Below, in pieces: positions 13,355 through 63,127 of a stretch of DNA of 64,000 bases. The notes beneath the pieces are model-generated. The model was not told the origin of the DNA and ran no database searches. It worked only from the letters and a program-made list of their open reading frames with translations. The position numbers were made by a program, and so were the translations under genes. Position 1 is the stretch's first letter, and each line of letters begins with the position of its first letter. Source of the stretch: Escherichia phage JEP8; the sequence record MT764208.1; one strand, given 5' to 3'.

Positions 13355-13382
13355 ATTATACATTAGCTAATCAAGTTGTCAA
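13355..13382 (-). promoter_or_regulatory. Early promoter (TTGACA-16-TATAAT) with conserved leader
   Basis: Minus strand TTGACA acttgattagctaatg TATAAT, then leader CACATCGAAAACAACGAGAGGA. Confidence 0.5.
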
Positions 13383-15887: not shown

Positions 15888-17062
15888 GCACTAACTTTTT
15901 TCTTTACTGCTTTCACCTTCTGGCGAATTGCTCGAATCTCTTCGATCTCTTTTTCAGTCTCTTTAACAATTTCTTTGCGATTCTGAATATCTGTATCGAG
16001 ATTATCATCAAGTTTAGGCAGCATGTCAATCAAGAACTTTTTAAAGTCTTTCAGGTTTCGGATAACAGCACCTTCACCCATTACCGCCACCCCTACACCA
16101 TCCGGCAGATCACCAAACAGCTTAACCAGTTCAGACAGATGATCATGATCTTCTAGTGCTTCTTCCGGTTCAGATGGCAGTTCAACAAAGTTATAACGTT
16201 CATCATTGCTGATCAAGTGATACCAGCAAAGCCCAAAAGATTTAGGAGTATATTCTACACCATCAACTTCAACCGCGTCAACACTTCCGAAAGAATCTAC
16301 TTTAGTTGCCTTAAATCCGTGTTCCAGCTTTTGAACAATTTCAATAACATGACTGGATACGGTTTCCGTATTAAACCAATGAGGCAAATTATGTGGATTT
16401 GGCTTGTAGCGTTCGCCTACTTTAAATCTCTGACCACGCTCTTGCATACGGACATATTCAACTCGCGTGATTTCCGCGAAGTATTCAAATTCGCCACCGT
16501 CAAACACACAAGCCCATTGATCACAAAAACGATCTGCCTTAACAGTTTCACCTTTCGCGGTGATCATGGTAGCTGATCCGTGCAATTCTTCTTCAACTAA
16601 AAAGCCATATTCGACAAAATCAACAAGTTTCATAGCTTCTTTGTGATCTGGATCATGCTCTCCCCAGAATCGCTTAAATTCTTGCAAACCTTCTGGGGTA
16701 AACGAATAACATTTACCTTTTTCAAAGTAAGTCGGCATTGCATCCTCTTTCTTGTTCATCGCTTCGTATGCCTCTTTTGAGATGCGTTTAAAGTATTTAC
16801 GCTCATTGTGCATAATCATAGTAGCCCAATAATCAACAATATCATTAGCGGAATAAACTACATCTCCAGCTTCAATAGTAATAACATGACCGTGGTCATC
16901 TTTTTCTAATACTTTAAAGCCCTTTTCTACGATTTCAGCAACCCGAATATGACCACGGCGCGAAGCATCGGTCAGAATAATTGAATAGCGAGAAAAGTCT
17001 AGAAACTCATCTTTACCACCTTCACGGAATGCATAGTAATGACCTTCAAAGAATTTAGCCAT
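15884..17062 (-). CDS. Paralogous family member F (multi-module, 392 aa)
   Basis: ERKYFKRI and ERYNFVEL motifs, VDAVEVDGVEY; C-terminal coiled-coil. Confidence 0.6.
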   Translation of the reverse strand: MAKFFEGHYYAFREGGKDEFLDFSRYSIILTDASRRGHIRVAEIVEKGFKVLEKDDHGHVITIEAGDVVYSANDIVDYWATMIMHNERKYFKRISKEAYEAMNKKEDAMPTYFEKGKCYSFTPEGLQEFKRFWGEHDPDHKEAMKLVDFVEYGFLVEEELHGSATMITAKGETVKADRFCDQWACVFDGGEFEYFAEITRVEYVRMQERGQRFKVGERYKPNPHNLPHWFNTETVSSHVIEIVQKLEHGFKATKVDSFGSVDAVEVDGVEYTPKSFGLCWYHLISNDERYNFVELPSEPEEALEDHDHLSELVKLFGDLPDGVGVAVMGEGAVIRNLKDFKKFLIDMLPKLDDNLDTDIQNRKEIVKETEKEIEEIRAIRQKVKAVKKKVSA

Positions 17063-18823: not shown

Positions 18824-19636
18824 TCAATCTACGTTAGTTACATAAACTTCTTGCGTATCAGAAGACTTACCACCTGAACGATCTAGGCAATAGGTCTTAT
18901 TCAACAGGACGCAGTTTAAATCATTCCGCTTGATAAAGTCAAGGAGATGATCATTTACCTTTCCCTTATGATGTGTGACATTACTGATACCAAACTGAAA
19001 ACCACGCGCCATAATAGATTCTACCCACTGATAGAATTTAATCTCTTCCTCGTTACTCCAGAACTTATTGTATTCCGCAGAAGTGATAAGGTACGGCGGG
19101 TCCAAATAAACGAAATCACCTGGCAAGATCTCGATCTCGTCATAGCGACCAGACGTAAAACTGATTCGACCGTCTTTGTTTTCTTCCTTAAAATTCAGGA
19201 CACGCTCTACCGCGTTTTCGTTAAAAGTCCGGCGACCAAAATTAGCATTAAATTCTCCCTTTCGGTTATGGCGGTTAATGTTGCTAAAACTGTGCTGAAT
19301 CAACACAAACAGAGATAGCGGATCTGGATTCTCGTTATACTTCTTACGGAATATCATGTAAGCGTCTTTATCATCACGAGACAAATCATTTTCGGCAATA
19401 ATACGCTTGATCGTAGAAACCGGATCAGGACACTCGTCAATCGCTTTGTACGCGTCAATTAAGCGGTGATCATAGTCATTAGCCAGCACATCACCTTCGA
19501 CGTACAGAGACACGCTCAAGCCGCCACAGAAGGCATCAACAAAGCGGTTATAGCGCTTAGGGAAATACTTACTAACACCGGGCAATAGCTTTTCCTTATT
19601 GCCAGTATAGGGAATTAAACCTAATGCTTTCTTCAT
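18824..19636 (-). CDS. dam: DNA N6-adenine methyltransferase Dam
   Basis: 270 aa; PYTGNKEKLLP...FVDAFCGGLSVS...DFVYLDPPYLIT...YNKFW match T4 Dam as recalled; DPPY catalytic motif. Confidence 0.88.
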   Translation of the reverse strand: MKKALGLIPYTGNKEKLLPGVSKYFPKRYNRFVDAFCGGLSVSLYVEGDVLANDYDHRLIDAYKAIDECPDPVSTIKRIIAENDLSRDDKDAYMIFRKKYNENPDPLSLFVLIQHSFSNINRHNRKGEFNANFGRRTFNENAVERVLNFKEENKDGRISFTSGRYDEIEILPGDFVYLDPPYLITSAEYNKFWSNEEEIKFYQWVESIMARGFQFGISNVTHHKGKVNDHLLDFIKRNDLNCVLLNKTYCLDRSGGKSSDTQEVYVTNVD

Positions 19637-37117: not shown

Positions 37118-37303
37118 TCAGAAATATGCAATATAGTTTGCCAGTCCTACAGAGTCATCATTCGGCATTGCTTTTACTGCCAGTTCAAACCCTGCTTCAA
37201 CTTTCTGTTTAGCGGATTCTTCGTTATAACCCCAGATTACCAGAATAGCTACTACGTTTTCTTTGCTTACTGCTTTAAGTGCTTTAGTGATGCGACGTGC
37301 CAT
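37118..37303 (-). CDS. Hypothetical protein
   Basis: 61 aa after cassette RBS GGAGAATCAAATT. Confidence 0.45.
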   Translation of the reverse strand: MARRITKALKAVSKENVVAILVIWGYNEESAKQKVEAGFELAVKAMPNDDSVGLANYIAYF

Positions 37304-37349
37304 AATTTGATTCTCCGTTTAAGAAAGTGTGTTTCGTTTCGATGGGTGT

Positions 37350-37378
37350 ATTATGCTATAGGCCGGATCTGGTGTCAA
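37350..37378 (-). promoter_or_regulatory. Early promoter (TTGACA-17-CATAAT)
   Basis: Minus strand TTGACA ccagatccggcctatag CATAAT then conserved leader. Confidence 0.5.
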
Positions 37379-52200: not shown

Positions 52201-52301
52201 CATTCTCTATGTTCCGTGAACTTGTAGATAAACGGTTGAAGGATAATATAGGGAATCCACGAGATCCGAAGAATCCGACACAGAGGAAAATTAATGGCTA
52301 A
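49215..52301 (+). CDS. 7: Baseplate wedge protein gp7
   Basis: 1028 aa; N-terminus [39 protein letters not shown] resembles T4 gp7; size matches. Confidence 0.88.
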   Translation: MIKAPSVTSLTIEKLSANQAYITWDDVGENFFYFVELAETRTRDGEIIPVDELSWVNLGYTAEQNWFEDKNLFPEYYYKFRVAVAAEGFEQSKWIETEEFQTFKTNAYNFSMMREFNLANEFVKQKFTYDNRDYIKFNTDLIQASLMKEDFVFSPEYANMTNISNYIVVDENFHEIQDHIEKVCIDINRTMLAEMNGVLYLFERFQPIVKVSNDKGQSWKAYKAFNDRVGNPVSRTCVYQSKTTTYVLGYDRIFYGRQARDTRWSADDVRFSDDTITFAKVGDENDLGFDVEVFGVFSRLTGDTTKYAEAMACSDDYLWVGAKDVIRRIRLKNTPVDTVQGSPTFGEKIFDPDVIRVTGNDKAVIQKMDVIDGKLLVFVTGEVKQRYQDPTKPENVVPSDDAGVYLIESDGLSFQRVFGNTPQEREYIQHGFSNMSTNGDEVFISHYNHHFESILPDPETAAKYELSEAVKYSQEPTYLTDKKIHQTTFRASYDDLRIWELGPQAYYNEADYTWMRRNGVRVWITNDNRPLVVYPEVIYTQEVDTSGILDQNRVNREVYDKGTVTCYLNNVKFEGFKQYASGVMFHKNTGEIIGFYQFNYRVRDQVGVYWKPTNVAFVAELQNQVREVPWVPVHYDREQDPDLRPLLNKMTPDSFLLENENFRKFSEYYLQFLSDGSGTYYNKLKNLIKNKYPREQDAYEYLWSEMNKRNIYADKNKRDAVVRFFESRKSDFYSTKGVEASYKFLFKLLYNEDVEIEVESQAGLEYDIVVSSTNIDEDIVGRTIYTQTGRANVTYLEREYEGGRLRWRVTIHNLIGRFEEGQVIKSEKTAFEGMILVGVRGKELLSSSIDYINRSRSQYTMKIKSALPVSRYANDVMRFVHPVGFGFIGVTLLTMFINSGLSMKHTETIIQSLKNYKFDSGLPSVYPDRVADLDVDGNIKKDPLTGKALYLTSPTMGEEFPVPPEYDQENSELFHGLKASERRFAMSPLFDQSAVTFSMFRELVDKRLKDNIGNPRDPKNPTQRKING

Positions 52302-53289
52302 TGAAAATAGTGTGATCTATCGCTCAATAATTACTAGTAAATTTAGAACGGAAAAACTTCTGAATTTCTATAATTCTGTAGGCGATGAGGCAAATCAAAT
52401 TACAATTTATGGAACGTTTGGACGTTCGGAGCCGTGGTCAGAAAACGAAAAAGAGGTGGGCTTTGCCCCACCTTATCCGACCGATTCAACGGCTGGCGTT
52501 GTTGATATGTGGACCCATATGATGGGGGCGGTTAAGATTAACAAATCACTTCTTGATGCGGTTATCCCTCGTAAAGATTGGGGTGATACCGGACAGGATA
52601 ACCCGCGCACGTTCTTTATCAATGACGTTGTTGTTGTAAACTCAGCACCATATAACCGTACAGATGTTGGTAGCGGTTGGATGGTGTATCGAGTGACAGA
52701 TGTTCCTGATCGCGGTTATTGTTCTATTTCAAGCATTGACGCAAAAGTAGAGTGTTTGAAATTGGGTGGAAAATGGACCCCTACGCATGAATCAATCGCG
52801 CCACCAGTAGGGAAAGGCGATTCTATTGATATGGGTGACGGATATCGTTGGGAATATTTGTACACAATTCCACCTGATGCGGCGATCAACCGTTGCACCA
52901 ATGAACATATTGTTGTACCGTTCCCCGATGAACTGCGACAAGATCCGGCGCGTTGGGGCTATGACAATGTGATCACCTGGTATAATGACTATAATCTGCT
53001 TTATCGGCTGAAAGTAGTAACTTTGCGTTTTCAGGCTTATATGGACTCTGCGCAATTCCCAACTACCGCGTTAGTGGGTAATACTGGTTTCCGTCAGTTA
53101 AGCATTATCCTTAACCCATTGGAAAAGAAAGCACGCCCTAGCGATCCAGACGTTAAAGCGGTTAAAGATCAGTACCGTCCGCAAGACTTAGAGCCACACT
53201 CAGGAGAAATGATCTACATGGAAAACCGACAACCTATCGTTCGGTCATTAGATCAAACAGAACTTGTTTCTGTATTGTTTGAGTTCTAA
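52294..53289 (+). CDS. 8: Baseplate wedge protein gp8
   Basis: 331 aa; SVIYRSIITSKFRTEKLLNFYNS...FGRSEPWSENEKEVGFAPPYPTDS resembles T4 gp8. Confidence 0.88.
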   Translation: MANENSVIYRSIITSKFRTEKLLNFYNSVGDEANQITIYGTFGRSEPWSENEKEVGFAPPYPTDSTAGVVDMWTHMMGAVKINKSLLDAVIPRKDWGDTGQDNPRTFFINDVVVVNSAPYNRTDVGSGWMVYRVTDVPDRGYCSISSIDAKVECLKLGGKWTPTHESIAPPVGKGDSIDMGDGYRWEYLYTIPPDAAINRCTNEHIVVPFPDELRQDPARWGYDNVITWYNDYNLLYRLKVVTLRFQAYMDSAQFPTTALVGNTGFRQLSIILNPLEKKARPSDPDVKAVKDQYRPQDLEPHSGEMIYMENRQPIVRSLDQTELVSVLFEF

Positions 53290-53303
53290 GTGTATGATTT
53301 AAA

Positions 53304-53336
53304 AGCCAATTCGAGAGAGTTGGCTTTTCTGTTTTT
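53304..53336 (+). terminator. Rho-independent terminator after gp8
   Basis: Hairpin agccaattcgagagagttggct followed by TTTTCTGTTTTT. Confidence 0.6.
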
Positions 53337-53340
53337 GGTG

Positions 53341-53369
53341 TTGACAATCTTGTCTGGTAAAGGTATAAT
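53341..53369 (+). promoter_or_regulatory. Consensus sigma70 promoter (TTGACA-17-TATAAT) inside the late module
   Basis: TTGACA atcttgtctggtaaagg TATAAT, then leader GCTCACATCTAAACAACGGAGGATAAATT-ATG (same leader family as the minus-strand cassettes). Confidence 0.7.
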
Positions 53370-53398
53370 GCTCACATCTAAACAACGGAGGATAAATT

Positions 53399-53632
53399 AT
53401 GGCACGTCGTAAATTTACAGATAATTGTGAAGCAATTCAGGTATCCCCTTGCGGTTGGGATGTGATCGCGAACGGTGAAAAGATCGGAGAGATCATCGAT
53501 CATACTCATTCATCATTAGCCGATTACACCGATGAACTATGGGAGGGTATCAACTTCATGAATGACACTAAACGATTCAAGACTATCGACGAAGCTATCT
53601 ATTTTGTGTATAATCCAACTTTCGGTATGTGA
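53399..53632 (+). CDS. Hypothetical protein, cassette ORF 1
   Basis: 77 aa (MARRKF...); SD GGAGGA. Confidence 0.55.
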   Translation: MARRKFTDNCEAIQVSPCGWDVIANGEKIGEIIDHTHSSLADYTDELWEGINFMNDTKRFKTIDEAIYFVYNPTFGM

Positions 53633-53643
53633 GGAACTAGAAA

Positions 53644-53976
53644 ATGGCACGCGTAAATATTAAATTGCATTACACAATGAATAAAGCTAAGTTCCCAATG
53701 CAAAAGCATTACTATGGTCTACGTGCACAAGATCCTAAACTCTATGGTACTCATTGGTTTTGTAAACATGATAACCAATGGCACACATACGAAGAAATGC
53801 ACGAGATGATGAAACAGGGTATTGAATTTAGTTATTCTAATTATGACCATCGTATAACTTGCATTCGAAAATTGAAACGATGGATTCGTAAGAATCCGCA
53901 ATTTAAAAACTTTGTGTTCTTTATGTCTCATGTTTATTTGGGGCATAGCGTTACCGTCACAGCAAAGGTTAAATAA
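53644..53976 (+). CDS. Hypothetical protein, cassette ORF 2
   Basis: 110 aa (MARVNI...), His/Tyr/Trp-rich; SD GAGGAA. Confidence 0.55.
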   Translation: MARVNIKLHYTMNKAKFPMQKHYYGLRAQDPKLYGTHWFCKHDNQWHTYEEMHEMMKQGIEFSYSNYDHRITCIRKLKRWIRKNPQFKNFVFFMSHVYLGHSVTVTAKVK

Positions 53977-54815
53977 TGGCACGACTTTCTAAACAAGAAC
54001 AAAAATTACACGACCGAGCAATGGAGTTGATTAATTCAGATCGCCCATTGACATATGAAGAAAAAGAATTTTGCTATAATAACTATCATGGCGATGGGCT
54101 AGGTGGTTCCGGTGCATTCTTTACCCCAGAAGGGCTTGCATGGGATTTTACCATCGATGCACATTGCACAGGAAAAGTATTGGATCTTTGTGCTGGGATC
54201 GGTCGCTTATCTTTTTGTATGTTACATCGTTGTAAGCCAGAAAAGATCGTATGCGTCGAACTCAATCCAGAATTTGCGCGGATTGGCAAGCGACTATTAC
54301 CGGAAGCAGAATGGATCACCAGCGATGTATTCGAATTTGAGTCAAACGAAAAATTCGATGTTGTAATTAGCAATCCACCTTTCGGGAAAATCAATACAAC
54401 CGACACAAAGGATGTATTTGAGTACACTGGCGGCGAATTTGAATTTAAGGTTATGACGCTAGGGCAAAAGTTTGCCGATGTTGGCTATTTTATTGTTCCT
54501 GTGGGTTCCGCTGGTTTTGCTTATTCCGGCAGACCTTATTATGACGGGACCATGAAGTCTAATAAATATCTAAAATGGAGCAAACAAACTGGTTTGGTGA
54601 CTTATGCCGGATGTGGGATCGATACATCAATCTATCGCGATGAATGGCACAGTACCAACGTTTTAACAGAAGTGGTTGAGGTTCGGTATTACGAGAAAGA
54701 AGCCGTAGAAGCGCCTAAATCGCGTCCTAACGAACAAATAGAAGAAAGTAAGGAGATTACCTTACCGAAACAGGAAAGCGAGTCTGGGACGCTCTCAGAT
54801 TTGTTTGACATTTAA
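53976..54815 (+). CDS. SAM-dependent amino-methyltransferase (putative DNA N6-adenine/N4-cytosine MTase), cassette ORF 3
   Basis: 279 aa (MARLSK...); motif I VLDLCAGIGRLS then motif IV NPPFG (gamma-class order); target cannot be resolved from sequence. Confidence 0.6.
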   Translation: MARLSKQEQKLHDRAMELINSDRPLTYEEKEFCYNNYHGDGLGGSGAFFTPEGLAWDFTIDAHCTGKVLDLCAGIGRLSFCMLHRCKPEKIVCVELNPEFARIGKRLLPEAEWITSDVFEFESNEKFDVVISNPPFGKINTTDTKDVFEYTGGEFEFKVMTLGQKFADVGYFIVPVGSAGFAYSGRPYYDGTMKSNKYLKWSKQTGLVTYAGCGIDTSIYRDEWHSTNVLTEVVEVRYYEKEAVEAPKSRPNEQIEESKEITLPKQESESGTLSDLFDI

Positions 54816-54819
54816 TTAT

Positions 54820-54846
54820 AAGCCGTCCTTGTGGGCGGCTTTTTTG
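54820..54846 (+). terminator. Rho-independent terminator after the MTase cassette
   Basis: Hairpin aagccgtccttgtgggcggctt followed by TTTTTTG. Confidence 0.55.
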
Positions 54847-54855
54847 TATGTATTT

Positions 54856-54863
54856 TATAAATA
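54856..54863 (+). promoter_or_regulatory. T4-type late promoter TATAAATA upstream of gp9
   Basis: Exact TATAAATA 28 nt upstream of the gp9 ATG. Confidence 0.6.
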
Positions 54864-54890
54864 ATACATCATAACATGAGGAATTAAACA

Positions 54891-55745
54891 ATGGCACAAG
54901 TTCCAAAGAAAAGAATAGACACAGGTACTGTCGGCAATCCATCGACTGGCGATATCTTATATGATGGCGGCAATAAAATTAACGATAACTTTGATTCAAT
55001 ATATGACGCATTTGCTGATCAGCGGTTTAAAGACGTAGACCACGGTGTGGGAAGAATGGTTATTCATGCAACCGGATACTATCAGAAGCATCCACGTCAA
55101 AGCTACGCTGGTTCCGCTGTTGAGATTGGGAGTCTACACGATATCGATACAACTCAAGGCGCACTTATTGCTATTCTACCTAAAGCAAAGGTCGGCGAGG
55201 GTGTTGTATTCATAAATAGTAACGGTAGCCTTTCAACGACGACACCGCTCAATATTCGAACTCAAGCAGGTGATTCTATTAGCGGTTATTCCGGTGATGC
55301 TACAATAACACAACCATTTTCAAAAGTCACTGTTTGGTGTACTGCCGTTGAAGGTAGTCGCGTAACGTGGCGATTGGGTATCGAAAGTATGTTTACCGAT
55401 ACAACAACGCCATTAGATAAAACAGTTAACGTAACTGGAGTAGCAACAAACGTTGCTATTGCCGCAAAAACAGAATACGTTTCCATCAAATTATTAACTA
55501 CCGCTAGCAATACATCCGGTTCAAAAATGCGTTCAAGTGAAACGCTACTGATGATTGATTCTAAAGCCGGAAAAGTTTATGCGACGGAATATGCAGTTTT
55601 GCAGAAGACAGAAGATGAACTATACACGGTTCGTTATTTCATCGGTTCCGGCGATAAAGTATATGCAGAGTATAAGGCTACTGGCGAAAATATTCGTTTA
55701 GCAGTTAAAGCCGTAGACACTATTAAAATCGGGGTTGCTACATGA
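54891..55745 (+). CDS. 9: Baseplate wedge / long-tail-fibre attachment protein gp9
   Basis: 284 aa; IDTGTVGNPSTGDILYDGGNKINDNFDSIYDAF resembles T4 gp9. Confidence 0.88.
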   Translation: MAQVPKKRIDTGTVGNPSTGDILYDGGNKINDNFDSIYDAFADQRFKDVDHGVGRMVIHATGYYQKHPRQSYAGSAVEIGSLHDIDTTQGALIAILPKAKVGEGVVFINSNGSLSTTTPLNIRTQAGDSISGYSGDATITQPFSKVTVWCTAVEGSRVTWRLGIESMFTDTTTPLDKTVNVTGVATNVAIAAKTEYVSIKLLTTASNTSGSKMRSSETLLMIDSKAGKVYATEYAVLQKTEDELYTVRYFIGSGDKVYAEYKATGENIRLAVKAVDTIKIGVAT

Positions 55746-62386: not shown

Positions 62387-63127
62387 ATGTTTAACAACAC
62401 TCTTTTTGCTCGCCTTGAATCGCAAAAGGATTATGAGAATACACGACAAACAGAGATTCTTAATCCTTATGTGAACTTTCACAAATATACAAATACTCAG
62501 ACGTTAGCCGACGTTATGGTCGCCGAAGCTATACAGATGCGAGGTGTAGAATTATATTACATCCCTCGTGAATTTGTCAAGCCAGATATGATCTTTGGTG
62601 AGGATGTTCAAAGCAAATTTACTAAAGCATGGAAATTTGCGGCTTATATTAACTCATTTGATGGGTATGAAGGAGCGGGTAATTTCTTCTCTAGTTTCGG
62701 GTATCAAGCTAATGACGAACTAACTTTTACGGTTAACCCCAACCTATTCAAACATCAAGTAGATGATCAAGAGCCAAAATCAGGTGACTTGATTTATATT
62801 CCAATGAGTAATGATCTATTTGAAATTAATTACGTCGAGCCATATCAGCCGTTTTTTCAGGCTGGCAAAAATGCCATGCGTAAAATTATTGCAGAGAAAT
62901 TCGTGTATAGCGGCGAGGAATTGCGACCAGAATTACAACGCAATGAGGGCATTAATGTTGATGAGTTCGCAGATCTGGATCTTGCACCGATCACTAATCT
63001 GGACGGGTTAACAGATATCAACTTAGATCAGTACAAAGAAGATAAGCAATTCAGAAGCGAAGGACAAGATTTTATTGATCCGTTTGATCCTATTAATGGC
63101 ACTGGTTCACCTTTGGCTAATTTTTGA
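62387..63127 (+). CDS. 14: Neck protein gp14
   Basis: 246 aa (T4 gp14 256 aa); position between gp13 and gp15. Confidence 0.8.

What the first reader, a model, noticed from the sequence alone, without database searches (positions are those of the whole stretch)
53290..54890. Host-type early promoter cassette (two MAR-proteins plus an amino-methyltransferase) inserted between late genes gp8 and gp9
gp8 is followed by a terminator, then a perfect TTGACA-17-TATAAT promoter with the same leader family as the minus-strand cassettes, three ORFs all beginning M-A-R (77 aa, 110 aa, 279-aa methyltransferase with VLDLCAGIG and NPPFG), a second terminator and a TATAAATA late promoter restoring gp9 expression. 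An immediately expressed methyltransferase inside the baseplate operon looks like an insertion; with Dam (18824-19636) it is a second putative DNA methyltransferase, possibly for anti-restriction self-protection. The two small partners are unassigned.
Basis: seen in the sequence. Interest (0 to 1): 0.72.

Follow-up and report, generated by a model that had tools for sequence, protein, structure and literature searches.

The report
Clamp-hooked DNA methyltransferase early-gene insertion
A known early-gene insertion between two baseplate genes of an RB49-like phage carries a methyltransferase whose last residues copy the sliding-clamp hook of the phage's own DNA polymerase, which suggests it methylates phage DNA while that DNA is being replicated.

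Summary
In this Krischvirus (RB49/phi1-type) window, gp8 is followed by a terminator, a perfect TTGACA-17-TATAAT promoter, three ORFs starting M-A-R, a second terminator, TATAAATA and gp9. Outgroup T4-like phages have only 9-63 nt between gp8 and gp9, against 1,601 nt here, so it is a real insertion. The cassette itself is not new. The promoter/stem-loop unit is a published 'PeSL', and the ORFs are RB49 ORF140-143.

What appears to be new is this. The methyltransferase (N6-adenine type: FFTP, VLDLCAGIG, NPPF) ends in a disordered linker plus TLSDLFDI. The cognate DNA polymerase gp43 ends in SLTDLFDI, the position of the gp45 sliding-clamp hook in T4. Homologs in lambdoid and Pseudomonas mobile elements, which rely on the host replisome, end instead in the host beta-clamp motif (...QLSLFDAA; 46 of 120 match strictly). 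In RB16 and KP27 the gene sits inside the primase-helicase cluster.

The best reading is a clamp-tethered DNA adenine methyltransferase that acts during replication. Binding, target site and anti-restriction role are all untested.

ORF1 and ORF2 are a separate mobile pair, not partners. A relative has the methyltransferase alone, and rV5-like phages have the pair alone.

The parts
52294..53289 (+). gene 8, baseplate wedge subunit (late gene upstream of the insertion)
   Evidence: Pfam Phage-Gp8 E 2.4e-143; phrog_977
53301..53328 (+). Intrinsic terminator / stem-loop of the PeSL, which ends gp8 transcription
   Evidence: 12-bp stem plus T-tract; dG -15.6 kcal/mol, z -3.84; annotated as a terminator in GEC-3S and TB34
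53341..53369 (+). Sigma-70 early promoter of the PeSL (-35 at 53341-53346, -10 at 53364-53369, 17-nt spacer)
   Evidence: 12 of 12 match; same architecture as the minus-strand PeSLs; PeSL class described in PMC2839356
53370..53398 (+). PeSL leader with Shine-Dalgarno (GCTCACATCTAAACAACGGAGGATAAATT)
   Evidence: Leader family GCxCACATCGAAAC...GGAG shared with PeSLs at 13382, 26419, 39371 and others
53399..53632 (+). ORF1 (77 aa; = phi1 ORF140, 85 aa elsewhere; W78* here). Function unknown. Part of a mobile ORF1-ORF2 pair
   Evidence: phrog_16603 E 2e-54; 61 phage records, including Vequintavirus at 76-77% identity; TGG>TGA relative to Phi1
53644..53976 (+). ORF2 (110 aa; = phi1 ORF142). Function unknown. 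Narrow family
   Evidence: phrog_12630 E 2e-68; two alleles in Krischvirus plus Vequintavirus homologs at 58-60%; only 4 representatives among 1.8e9 proteins; AF2 model poor, pLDDT 62
53976..54689 (+). Methyltransferase catalytic core (residues 1-238; = RB49/phi1 ORF143). Motif X FFTP at 54117-54128, motif I VLDLCAGIG at 54177-54203, motif IV NPPFG at 54372-54386
54690..54788 (+). Low-complexity acidic linker of the methyltransferase (residues 239-271), predicted disordered
   Evidence: pLDDT about 55; sequence and length highly variable among homologs while the terminal motif is kept
54789..54815 (+). C-terminal peptide TLSDLFDI plus stop codon: putative gp45 sliding-clamp-binding motif
   Evidence: Cognate gp43 ends in SLTDLFDI in Phi1 and in the nearest relative 011D4; among real Phi1 genes only gp43, gp55, gp8 and this protein end this way; short helix predicted at residues 273-275; T4 gp43/gp33/gp55 C-termini are gp45-binding epitopes (PMC2988020, PMC6212786)
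54820..54841 (+). Intrinsic terminator that ends the early transcript
   Evidence: 9-bp stem with 6 GC pairs plus T-tract; dG -15.9, z -4.39; annotated in GEC-3S and TB34
54856..54863 (+). T4-type late promoter TATAAATA for gene 9
   Evidence: Exact match 28 nt upstream of the gp9 ATG; same arrangement conserved in divergent relative L018
54891..55745 (+). gene 9, baseplate wedge tail-fibre connector (late gene downstream of the insertion)
   Evidence: Pfam T4_gp9_10_N 1.4e-40; phrog_967

Best explanation
The 1.6-kb segment is a self-contained early transcription unit inserted into the late baseplate operon of the Krischvirus lineage. It consists of a PeSL (terminator plus strong sigma-70 promoter plus leader), three ORFs and a terminator. 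A TATAAATA late promoter behind it restarts gene 9.

Its conserved cargo is a small gamma-class (motif X-I-IV, NPPF) N6-adenine methyltransferase. Early after infection, host RNA polymerase transcribes it together with the replication genes. A disordered acidic linker presents the C-terminal peptide TLSDLFDI, which mimics the C-terminus of the phage DNA polymerase gp43 (SLTDLFDI). That peptide docks into the hydrophobic pocket of the phage sliding clamp gp45. The enzyme is thereby held on clamp-loaded, replicating phage DNA and methylates adenines as the DNA is made. The most plausible purpose is to protect unmodified-cytosine phage DNA from host restriction-type defences.

ORF1 and ORF2 are an unrelated mobile two-gene module that landed behind the same promoter.

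Shown: the anatomy, the insertion, family membership, the tail identity and the clade-specific tails. Inferred: early timing, clamp binding, DNA substrate, adenine-N6 chemistry and the protective role.
For: (1) Anatomy and insertion. Outgroup gp8-gp9 gaps are 9, 63 and 9 nt.

(2) PeSL promoter and terminator activity has been shown experimentally for other copies (PMC2839356).

(3) The methyltransferase tail TLSDLFDI matches gp43's SLTDLFDI in Phi1 and 011D4. A scan of all 1,579 ORF C-termini in Phi1 finds such endings only in gp43, gp55 (a known clamp client), gp8 and this protein among real genes.

(4) The shared residues upstream of the last 14 nt use different codons. At 68% overall identity (P0002) the linker has diverged but the tail is TLTDLFDI. 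This points to selection on the peptide.

(5) T4 gp43, gp33 and gp55 C-termini are interchangeable hydrophobic-acidic gp45-binding epitopes on flexible linkers. The T4 ligase-gp45 interaction was found from the same kind of similarity.

(6) The tail type tracks the clamp in use. The lambdoid-phage copy, located after the O and P replication genes, ends in QQLDLFGEAA. Among 120 homologs, 46 carry a strict Q[LM]x[LM]F, typically ...QLSLFDAA, which fits the beta-clamp consensus QL(S/D)LF. Linkers range from 22 to 172 aa while the motif stays fixed.

(7) Replication context. In RB16, KP27 and L022 the gene lies between primase 61 and helicase 41. In Pseudomonas it lies next to an ATP-dependent DNA ligase.

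(9) The family is found in T4-like genera with unmodified cytosine. Only about 60 of roughly 650 Escherichia/Enterobacteria T4-like records carry it. How such phages escape restriction is a stated open question (PMC2993671).
Against: - No binding, methylation or phenotype data exist.
- HPLC/MS nucleoside analysis of TB34, which carries the cassette, reported 'no detectable modified DNA' (PMC13390438). However, that paper never mentions adenine or m6dA, even for Dam-encoding phages, so low-frequency site-specific m6A was not assessed.
- Many family members have no tail: 94 of 240 in the census, plus Aeromonas AS-zj, phiM12 and GAP32. The tail is therefore not needed for activity.
- The RB16/KP27-type tail (LFTFxIE) resembles its own gp43 tail (SLN(T/D)LFGD(D)W) only in the LF core.
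- The last 14 nt are identical to the gp43 3' end and contain TTGACA, which in gp43 is the -35 of a downstream PeSL. A DNA-level, recombination origin for 'FDI*' is therefore possible.
Confidence: 0.6

Rival explanations
1. It is an ordinary untethered orphan DNA methyltransferase. The polymerase-like tail would be a by-product of PeSL-mediated recombination, with the 3' end of the gene captured from the gp43/PeSL junction, and would have no clamp-binding function.
For: The last 14 nt (TGTTTGACATTTAA) are identical to the gp43 3' end and embed TTGACA, the -35 of the PeSL downstream of gp43. PeSLs are proposed recombination hot spots. Many homologs work without any tail.
Against: The similarity extends upstream of the identical DNA and uses different codons (S/T-L-T/S-D-L). 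Relatives whose 3' DNA lacks TTGACA still carry clamp-type tails (TLDFVDFSEI, SLSMFDI). Distant homologs independently carry the host beta-clamp motif on linkers of 22-172 aa. No other PeSL-adjacent gene in Phi1 ends this way.
Confidence: 0.2
2. It is an RNA or protein methyltransferase (PrmC/HemK-, RsmC/RsmD- or METTL5-like) that modifies the host translation machinery early in infection, as several GenBank records annotate it ('release factor glutamine methyltransferase').
Against: NCBIfam scores are far below their cutoffs: PrmC 37.6 against 199, RsmC 29 against 295. The invariant N-terminal FFTP motif X and the Eco57I Pfam hit above threshold are traits of gamma-class DNA methyltransferases. 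The longest structural alignments are to DNA methyltransferases. Clamp-binding tails only make sense on DNA. The gene neighbours are replication genes.
Confidence: 0.12
3. ORF1, ORF2 and the methyltransferase form one three-component system, with the small proteins acting as specificity, regulatory or inhibitor subunits of the methyltransferase.
For: They are co-transcribed from one promoter, tightly packed or overlapping, and share the ATGGCACG start. RB16 and KP27 also have two small overlapping ORFs upstream of the methyltransferase.
Against: Relative L018/L019 has the methyltransferase alone between gp8 and gp9. The ORF1-ORF2 pair occurs without the methyltransferase in Vequintavirus. The small ORFs of RB16 are not homologous to them. 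ORF1 is truncated here and split in RB49. ORF2 has a mosaic divergent allele while the methyltransferase stays above 95% identical.
Confidence: 0.08

Closest known systems
PeSL (promoter-early stem-loop) regulatory cassettes of phi1/RB49 (Arbiol et al. 2010, PMC2839356)
   Same: A stem-loop terminator, AT/T-rich tract, consensus sigma-70 promoter, conserved leader, SD and ATG. It flanks non-core ORFs. The paper notes that a few PeSLs lie inside virion modules next to genes of unknown function.
   Different: Nothing in the regulatory unit differs. The paper text does not mention this particular cassette, gene 8, gene 9 or the methyltransferase.
gp45 sliding-clamp clients of T4: C-termini of gp43, gp33 and gp55, and the internal loop of T4 DNA ligase
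   Same: A short hydrophobic-acidic peptide on a flexible linker at the extreme C-terminus, near-identical to the cognate polymerase tail. This is the same logic by which the ligase-gp45 interaction was discovered (PMC6212786).
   Different: The client would be a DNA methyltransferase, which is not among the described gp45 ligands. Binding has not been measured.
Eukaryotic DNMT1-PCNA (PIP-box) replication-coupled maintenance methylation
   Same: Works like it: a DNA methyltransferase recruited to newly replicated DNA by a short clamp-binding motif (from my own knowledge).
   Different: Unrelated enzyme (C5-cytosine against N6-adenine), unrelated motif, and a viral or bacterial clamp. There is no evidence of hemimethylated-site preference.
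Gamma-class N6-adenine DNA methyltransferases (M.TaqI, Eco57I family, HsdM, YtxK-like lmo1582)
   Different: Much smaller (core about 238 aa). There is no recognisable large target-recognition domain. Sequence identity is only 14-19%. PF02384 N6_Mtase scores below threshold (16.7 against 20.4).
Bacterial beta-clamp-binding motif clients (QL[SD]LF; Dalrymple et al. 2001)
   Same: Homologs of this methyltransferase in lambdoid and Pseudomonas mobile elements end in ...QLSLFDAA or ...QLDLFGEAA at the extreme C-terminus.
   Different: The window protein itself carries the phage-clamp (gp43-like) version, not the beta-clamp motif.
T4-type Dam (window 18824-19636)
   Same: A phage-encoded orphan adenine methyltransferase in the same genome.
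   Different: A different class (DPPY, alpha-type order), with no C-terminal clamp-like tail (…YVTNVD).

Membership tests
PeSL regulatory cassette (Arbiol 2010) | Consensus sigma-70 promoter (-35/-10) | tested here: met
   TTGACA-17-TATAAT, 12 of 12
PeSL regulatory cassette (Arbiol 2010) | Stable stem-loop adjacent to the promoter, acting as a terminator for upstream transcription | tested here: met
   53301-53328, dG -15.6, z -3.8, followed by a T-tract. In vivo termination was not tested here.
PeSL regulatory cassette (Arbiol 2010) | Repeated family in the genome, with a conserved leader, SD and start codon at the 3' end | tested here: met
   Shared upstream T-tract/GGTG and leader GCxCACATCGAAAC..GGAG..ATG with many minus-strand copies
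Gamma-class N6-adenine DNA methyltransferase | SAM-binding motif I (xLDxxxGxG) | tested here: met
   VLDLCAGIG, residues 68-76; C72-G76 invariant in 56 sequences
Gamma-class N6-adenine DNA methyltransferase | Catalytic motif IV (N/D)PP(Y/F), located after motif I | tested here: met
   NPPFG, residues 133-137, invariant
Gamma-class N6-adenine DNA methyltransferase | Motif X (FxTP) N-terminal to motif I | tested here: met
   GAFFTP, residues 46-51, invariant. The link between motif X and gamma-class enzymes is from my own knowledge.
Gamma-class N6-adenine DNA methyltransferase | Curated family model above threshold | tested here: inconclusive
   Pfam Eco57I scores 27.4 against GA 25.3 (met). N6_Mtase scores 16.7 against 20.4 (not met). 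MTS scores 38.6 against 23 (met, but that family is RNA/protein type).
Gamma-class N6-adenine DNA methyltransferase | Methylates adenine N6 in DNA at a defined target | not testable with these tools
   Needs enzymology or SMRT/nanopore methylome data. The TB34 nucleoside study did not address m6dA.
gp45 sliding-clamp client (T4 gp43/gp33/gp55 type) | Hydrophobic-acidic peptide at the extreme C-terminus, similar to the cognate gp43 tail | tested here: met
   TLSDLFDI against gp43 SLTDLFDI: the last 5 residues are identical and 6 of 8 positions are identical. The ending is rare in the proteome.
gp45 sliding-clamp client (T4 gp43/gp33/gp55 type) | Variable, unstructured linker joining the motif to the folded domain | tested here: met
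   pLDDT about 55 for residues 240-272. The linker diverges while the tail is kept.
gp45 sliding-clamp client (T4 gp43/gp33/gp55 type) | Physical binding to gp45 | not testable with these tools
   No complex prediction or binding assay is available here.
PrmC/HemK release-factor glutamine methyltransferase (annotation in several GenBank records) | Equivalog model TIGR03534 above its cutoff | tested here: not met
   37.6 bits against a cutoff of 199.1. The match covers only the SAM/NPP core, residues 64-137.
RsmC 16S rRNA m2G methyltransferase (RB49 record note) | Equivalog model NF007023 above its cutoff | tested here: not met
   29.2 bits against a cutoff of 295
Three-gene methyltransferase system with ORF1/ORF2 | Conserved co-occurrence of the three genes | tested here: not met
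   The methyltransferase occurs alone in L018/L019. ORF1-ORF2 occur alone in FV3.

The most novel reading that the evidence does not exclude
This methyltransferase family would be the first viral or bacterial example of replication-coupled DNA methylation achieved by tethering the enzyme to the sliding clamp. The C-terminal hook would be swapped to match whichever clamp the mobile element uses: a gp43-like peptide for the phage gp45 clamp in T4-like phages, and QLSLF for the host beta clamp in lambdoid phages and integrative elements. That would be a prokaryotic analogue of DNMT1-PCNA. It would let unmodified-cytosine T4 relatives, and incoming mobile DNA, be methylated the moment they are copied.
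Probability: 0.45. Interest if true: 0.78.

Novelty: new variant of a known kind. Interest (0 to 1): 0.6.

Why it matters
The cassette itself is ordinary and already annotated. The clamp-hook tail is what matters.

It offers a concrete, cheaply testable answer to two questions. First, how does a very small methyltransferase with no obvious DNA-recognition domain find and keep up with replicating phage DNA? Second, how do T4 relatives that lack hydroxymethylcytosine protect their DNA? The 2010 T4-genomes review flags the second question as open (PMC2993671).

It would also add a DNA-modifying enzyme to the tool-belt of the T4 clamp and of the bacterial beta clamp. It gives a sequence rule (the C-terminal motif) for predicting which orphan methyltransferases of phages, prophages and integrative elements act at the fork. 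Finally, it corrects the 'release factor glutamine methyltransferase' label that is spreading through GenBank records of this genus.

Tried and rejected
1. Tested whether the two small ORFs upstream of the RB16/KP27 methyltransferase are homologs of ORF1 and ORF2. BLASTP found nothing, so a conserved three-gene module is rejected.

2. Tested whether Phi1 ORF189 (238 aa, annotated 'DNA methyltransferase') is a tail-less paralog. It is unrelated and has an FPPC-type motif.

3. Tested whether the repeated ATGGCACG start motifs bound the recombinant ORF2 patch. They do not; the divergent patch (about 53670-53900) lies inside ORF2.

4. Tried to assign ORF2 by homology and structure. Only Krischvirus and Vequintavirus relatives exist. 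The AF2 model is poor (pLDDT 62), so no fold search was run. Pfam and NCBIfam find nothing for ORF1 or ORF2.

6. Looked for another protein sharing the LFTFxIE tail in the available RB16, KP27 and L022 sequence. None was found. Only gp43 and one homing endonuclease have LF[GD]-type ends.

7. Considered the TB34 'no detectable modification' result as evidence against DNA methylation. I set it aside because that paper never addresses adenine.

8. TATAAATA is not enriched window-wide. Its role rests on its position and its conservation only.

9. The Desplats 2002 RB49 paper (PMC135041) is not held. Three literature searches found no prior clamp-tethered prokaryotic methyltransferase, but the library is incomplete.
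Full report
WHAT THE WINDOW IS. The region is 97-99% identical to about 57 complete genomes of the genus Krischvirus (RB49, phi1, JSE, GEC-3S, TB34 and others). The best match is vB_EcoM_011D4 at 99.3%. All parts of the finding are annotated in those records as ORF140/(141)/142/143.

CHECK OF THE OBSERVATION. Everything described is in the sequence.
- gp8 (52294-53289) and gp9 (54891-55745) are securely identified.
- Between them lie a 12-bp-stem terminator (53301-53328) and the only perfect TTGACA-17-TATAAT in the 4-kb scan (53341-53369).
- Three ORFs follow, each starting ATGGCACG (M-A-R), at 53399, 53644 and 53976.
- A second terminator lies at 54820-54841, and TATAAATA at 54856-54863.
- Both hairpins fold far better than shuffles (z -3.8 and -4.4).
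- The 'leader family' is real. A scan for near-consensus promoters finds 27. This is the only one on the plus strand, and it shares the whole architecture (stem-loop, T-tract, GGTG, promoter, GCxCACATCGAAAC...GGAG...ATG) with many minus-strand copies.

These units are the PeSLs (promoter-early stem-loops) of Arbiol et al. 2010. That study demonstrated promoter and terminator activity for other copies. It noted that a few PeSLs lie inside virion modules next to genes of unknown function.

IS IT AN INSERTION? Yes. In Aeromonas phage ZHF (Tulanevirus), T2 and a Klebsiella Slopekvirus-type phage, gp8 and gp9 are 9, 63 and 9 nt apart. Here they are 1,601 nt apart. A divergent metagenomic relative (L018/L019; methyltransferase 65% identical) has gp8, terminator, TTGACA-17-TATAAT, methyltransferase, terminator, TATAAATA, gp9, with no ORF1 or ORF2. 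The methyltransferase is therefore the conserved cargo at this site.

THE TWO SMALL PROTEINS. ORF1 (phrog_16603) and ORF2 (phrog_12630) have no Pfam or NCBIfam match. They occur as an adjacent pair, without a methyltransferase, among early small genes of rV5/FV3-like Vequintavirus phages. An exhaustive search finds only 4 representative clusters for ORF2. ORF1 is truncated here by W78* relative to Phi1 and is split in the RB49 record. ORF2 has a mosaic divergent allele. They behave as an independent, dispensable mobile module. Their function remains unknown, and the ORF2 model was too poor to use.

THE METHYLTRANSFERASE. The 279-aa protein has, in order, an invariant GAFFTP (motif X), VLDLCAGIG (motif I) and NPPFG (motif IV). 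Pfam gives MTS, Methyltransf_25 and Eco57I above their thresholds. NCBIfam's PrmC and RsmC models are hit only over the SAM/NPP core and score far below their cutoffs. The 'release factor glutamine methyltransferase' label in several records is therefore not justified.

THE NEW POINT: A CLAMP HOOK. Phage copies carry a C-terminal extension that prophage-edge enterobacterial copies lack. In Krischvirus the extension ends in TLSDLFDI. The DNA polymerase gp43 of Phi1, and of the nearest relative 011D4, ends in SLTDLFDI.

I scanned the C-termini of all 1,579 stop-to-stop ORFs of Phi1. Among real genes, only gp43, gp55, gp8 and this methyltransferase end in such a peptide. gp55 is a known clamp client, and the gp8 ending is probably a coincidence.

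[quoted passage not shown] The T4 ligase-gp45 interaction was predicted from the same kind of similarity to EKASLDFLFG and then confirmed (PMC6212786).

At the DNA level only the last 14 nt are identical, and upstream the shared residues use different codons. A 68%-identical homolog keeps TLTDLFDI behind a diverged linker.

FAMILY-WIDE PATTERN. A homolog in a lambdoid phage sits immediately after replication genes O and P and ends in QQLDLFGEAA. Of 120 homologs around it, 46 have a strict Q[LM]x[LM]F in the last 16 residues, typically ...QLSLFDAA. Most of the rest are near variants. QL(S/D)LF at C-termini is the bacterial beta-clamp-binding consensus (PMC9690074).

In a census of 240 family members:
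- 76 are beta-type.
- 23 have another [LM][FW] ending.
- 9 end in xFTF[RTV]IE (RB16, KP27, Phynn type).
- 5 are Krischvirus gp43-type.
- 6 end in ...ARMAL.
- 17 are other, and 10 are fragments.
- 94 are tail-less.

Beta-type extensions range from 22 to 172 aa while the terminal motif stays fixed. The tail therefore changes with the clamp available to the element. It is absent in several clades, including Aeromonas AS-zj, phiM12 and jumbo GAP32. It is an add-on, not a requirement.

The RB16/KP27 tails share only the LF core with their own gp43 tails (SLN(T/D)LFGD(D)W). The argument is weaker there.

CONTEXT. In RB16, KP27 and the T4-like contig L022 the gene lies between primase 61/61.1 and helicase 41, a few kb from gp43. 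In Pseudomonas the QLSLFDAA copy lies next to an ATP-dependent DNA ligase in an integrative element.

The family is present in T4-like genera that lack the hydroxymethylcytosine pathway. Only about 60 of roughly 650 Escherichia/Enterobacteria T4-like records carry it. Phi1 has no gene 42, glucosyltransferase, alc or denB.

MOST LIKELY MECHANISM. Host RNA polymerase fires the PeSL promoter immediately after infection. The transcript ends at 54841, which insulates the late baseplate operon in both directions, and gp9 is re-expressed late from TATAAATA. The methyltransferase accumulates with the replication proteins, hooks onto gp45 through its polymerase-like tail, and methylates adenine in newly made phage DNA.

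The anatomy, insertion, family and tails are shown. The timing, clamp binding, DNA/N6-adenine chemistry and protective function are inferred.

The main counter-evidence is the absence of any experiment, and a 2026 nucleoside survey that found 'no detectable modified DNA' in TB34. That paper does not discuss adenine methylation at all.

NOVELTY. The cassette, its PeSL and the 'putative methyltransferase' are already known. I found no description of a clamp-tethered phage or bacterial DNA methyltransferase in three literature searches, but the library is incomplete. I therefore rate it a new variant of known kinds: an orphan gamma-class methyltransferase combined with a clamp-client motif. It works like DNMT1-PCNA but is not related to it.

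Noticed in passing
Phi1 NC_009821.1 117297-118013 (locus L016 46398-47114, minus strand); outside this window: Krischvirus has a third annotated 'DNA methyltransferase', ORF189 (238 aa). It is unrelated to ORF143 and carries an ...IIFAFPPCTNLAVSG... motif suggestive of a C5-cytosine-type enzyme.
   Followed up: partly
Phi1 L013 about 15911-15990 (minus strand); 011D4 L035 about 1860-1975: The last codons of DNA polymerase gp43 (TTT GAC ATT TAA) contain TTGACA. With a 16-nt spacer and TATAAT, this forms the -35 of the PeSL promoter for the next gene. A clamp-binding peptide and a promoter element therefore overlap in the same bases.
   Followed up: partly
window 53266-53289: gp8 itself ends in ...LVSVLFEF, a hydrophobic-acidic C-terminus picked up by the same tail scan as gp43, gp55 and the methyltransferase. 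This is probably coincidental for a baseplate protein.
   Followed up: no
window 53630-53632: ORF1 carries TGA where Phi1 has TGG (W78*). This removes 8 residues and the ORF1/ORF2 overlap. In the original RB49 record ORF1 is split into ORF140w and ORF141w.
   Followed up: yes
window about 53670-53900: Compared with RB49, ORF2 contains an internal patch of only 47-80% nucleotide identity inside an otherwise 97-100% identical cassette. Two ORF2 alleles (about 100% and about 72% amino-acid identity) circulate within Krischvirus.
   Followed up: yes
window 37296-37378 (minus strand): The only other ATGGCACG in the window is also the start of a PeSL-driven ORF (ATGGCACGTCG..., MARRITKA), sharing 11 nt with the ORF1 start (MARRKFTD). 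This hints that PeSL homology can extend into the first codons.
   Followed up: partly
loci L003-L009 (Citrobacter, Enterobacter chromosomes), gene at 8001-8717/8729: The closest bacterial homologs (53-61% identity, about 238 aa, tail-less) are the very last gene at a prophage or island edge, directly abutting host genes. In Enterobacter they lie downstream of a lambda-like tail-tip protein. One variant occurs on 887 Citrobacter contigs.
   Followed up: partly
proteins P0162, P0171, P0174, P0192, P0196, P0215, P0237: A minority of methyltransferase homologs carry a different conserved basic C-terminal tail (...VERKARMAL) on 49-92-aa extensions. Its partner is unknown.
   Followed up: no
RB16 locus L014 13782-14312: The putative homing endonuclease 'RB16 1' ends in ...RKELFGEI, an LF[GD]-type C-terminus like gp43's. 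It could be another clamp client or chance.
   Followed up: no
literature, PMC13390438 (TB34 OX001802.1 against SAP OZ034687.1): Two Krischvirus isolates that are 99.96% identical reportedly differ completely in DNA modification (canonical C against glucosyl-hmC) with no known pathway genes. Both carry this cassette.
   Followed up: no
window 62551-62580 (minus strand): A second perfect consensus promoter (TTGACA-18-TATAAT) lies on the minus strand in the late structural region. It has no PeSL stem-loop, no leader and no nearby start codon, so it is probably a chance match inside coding sequence.
   Followed up: no
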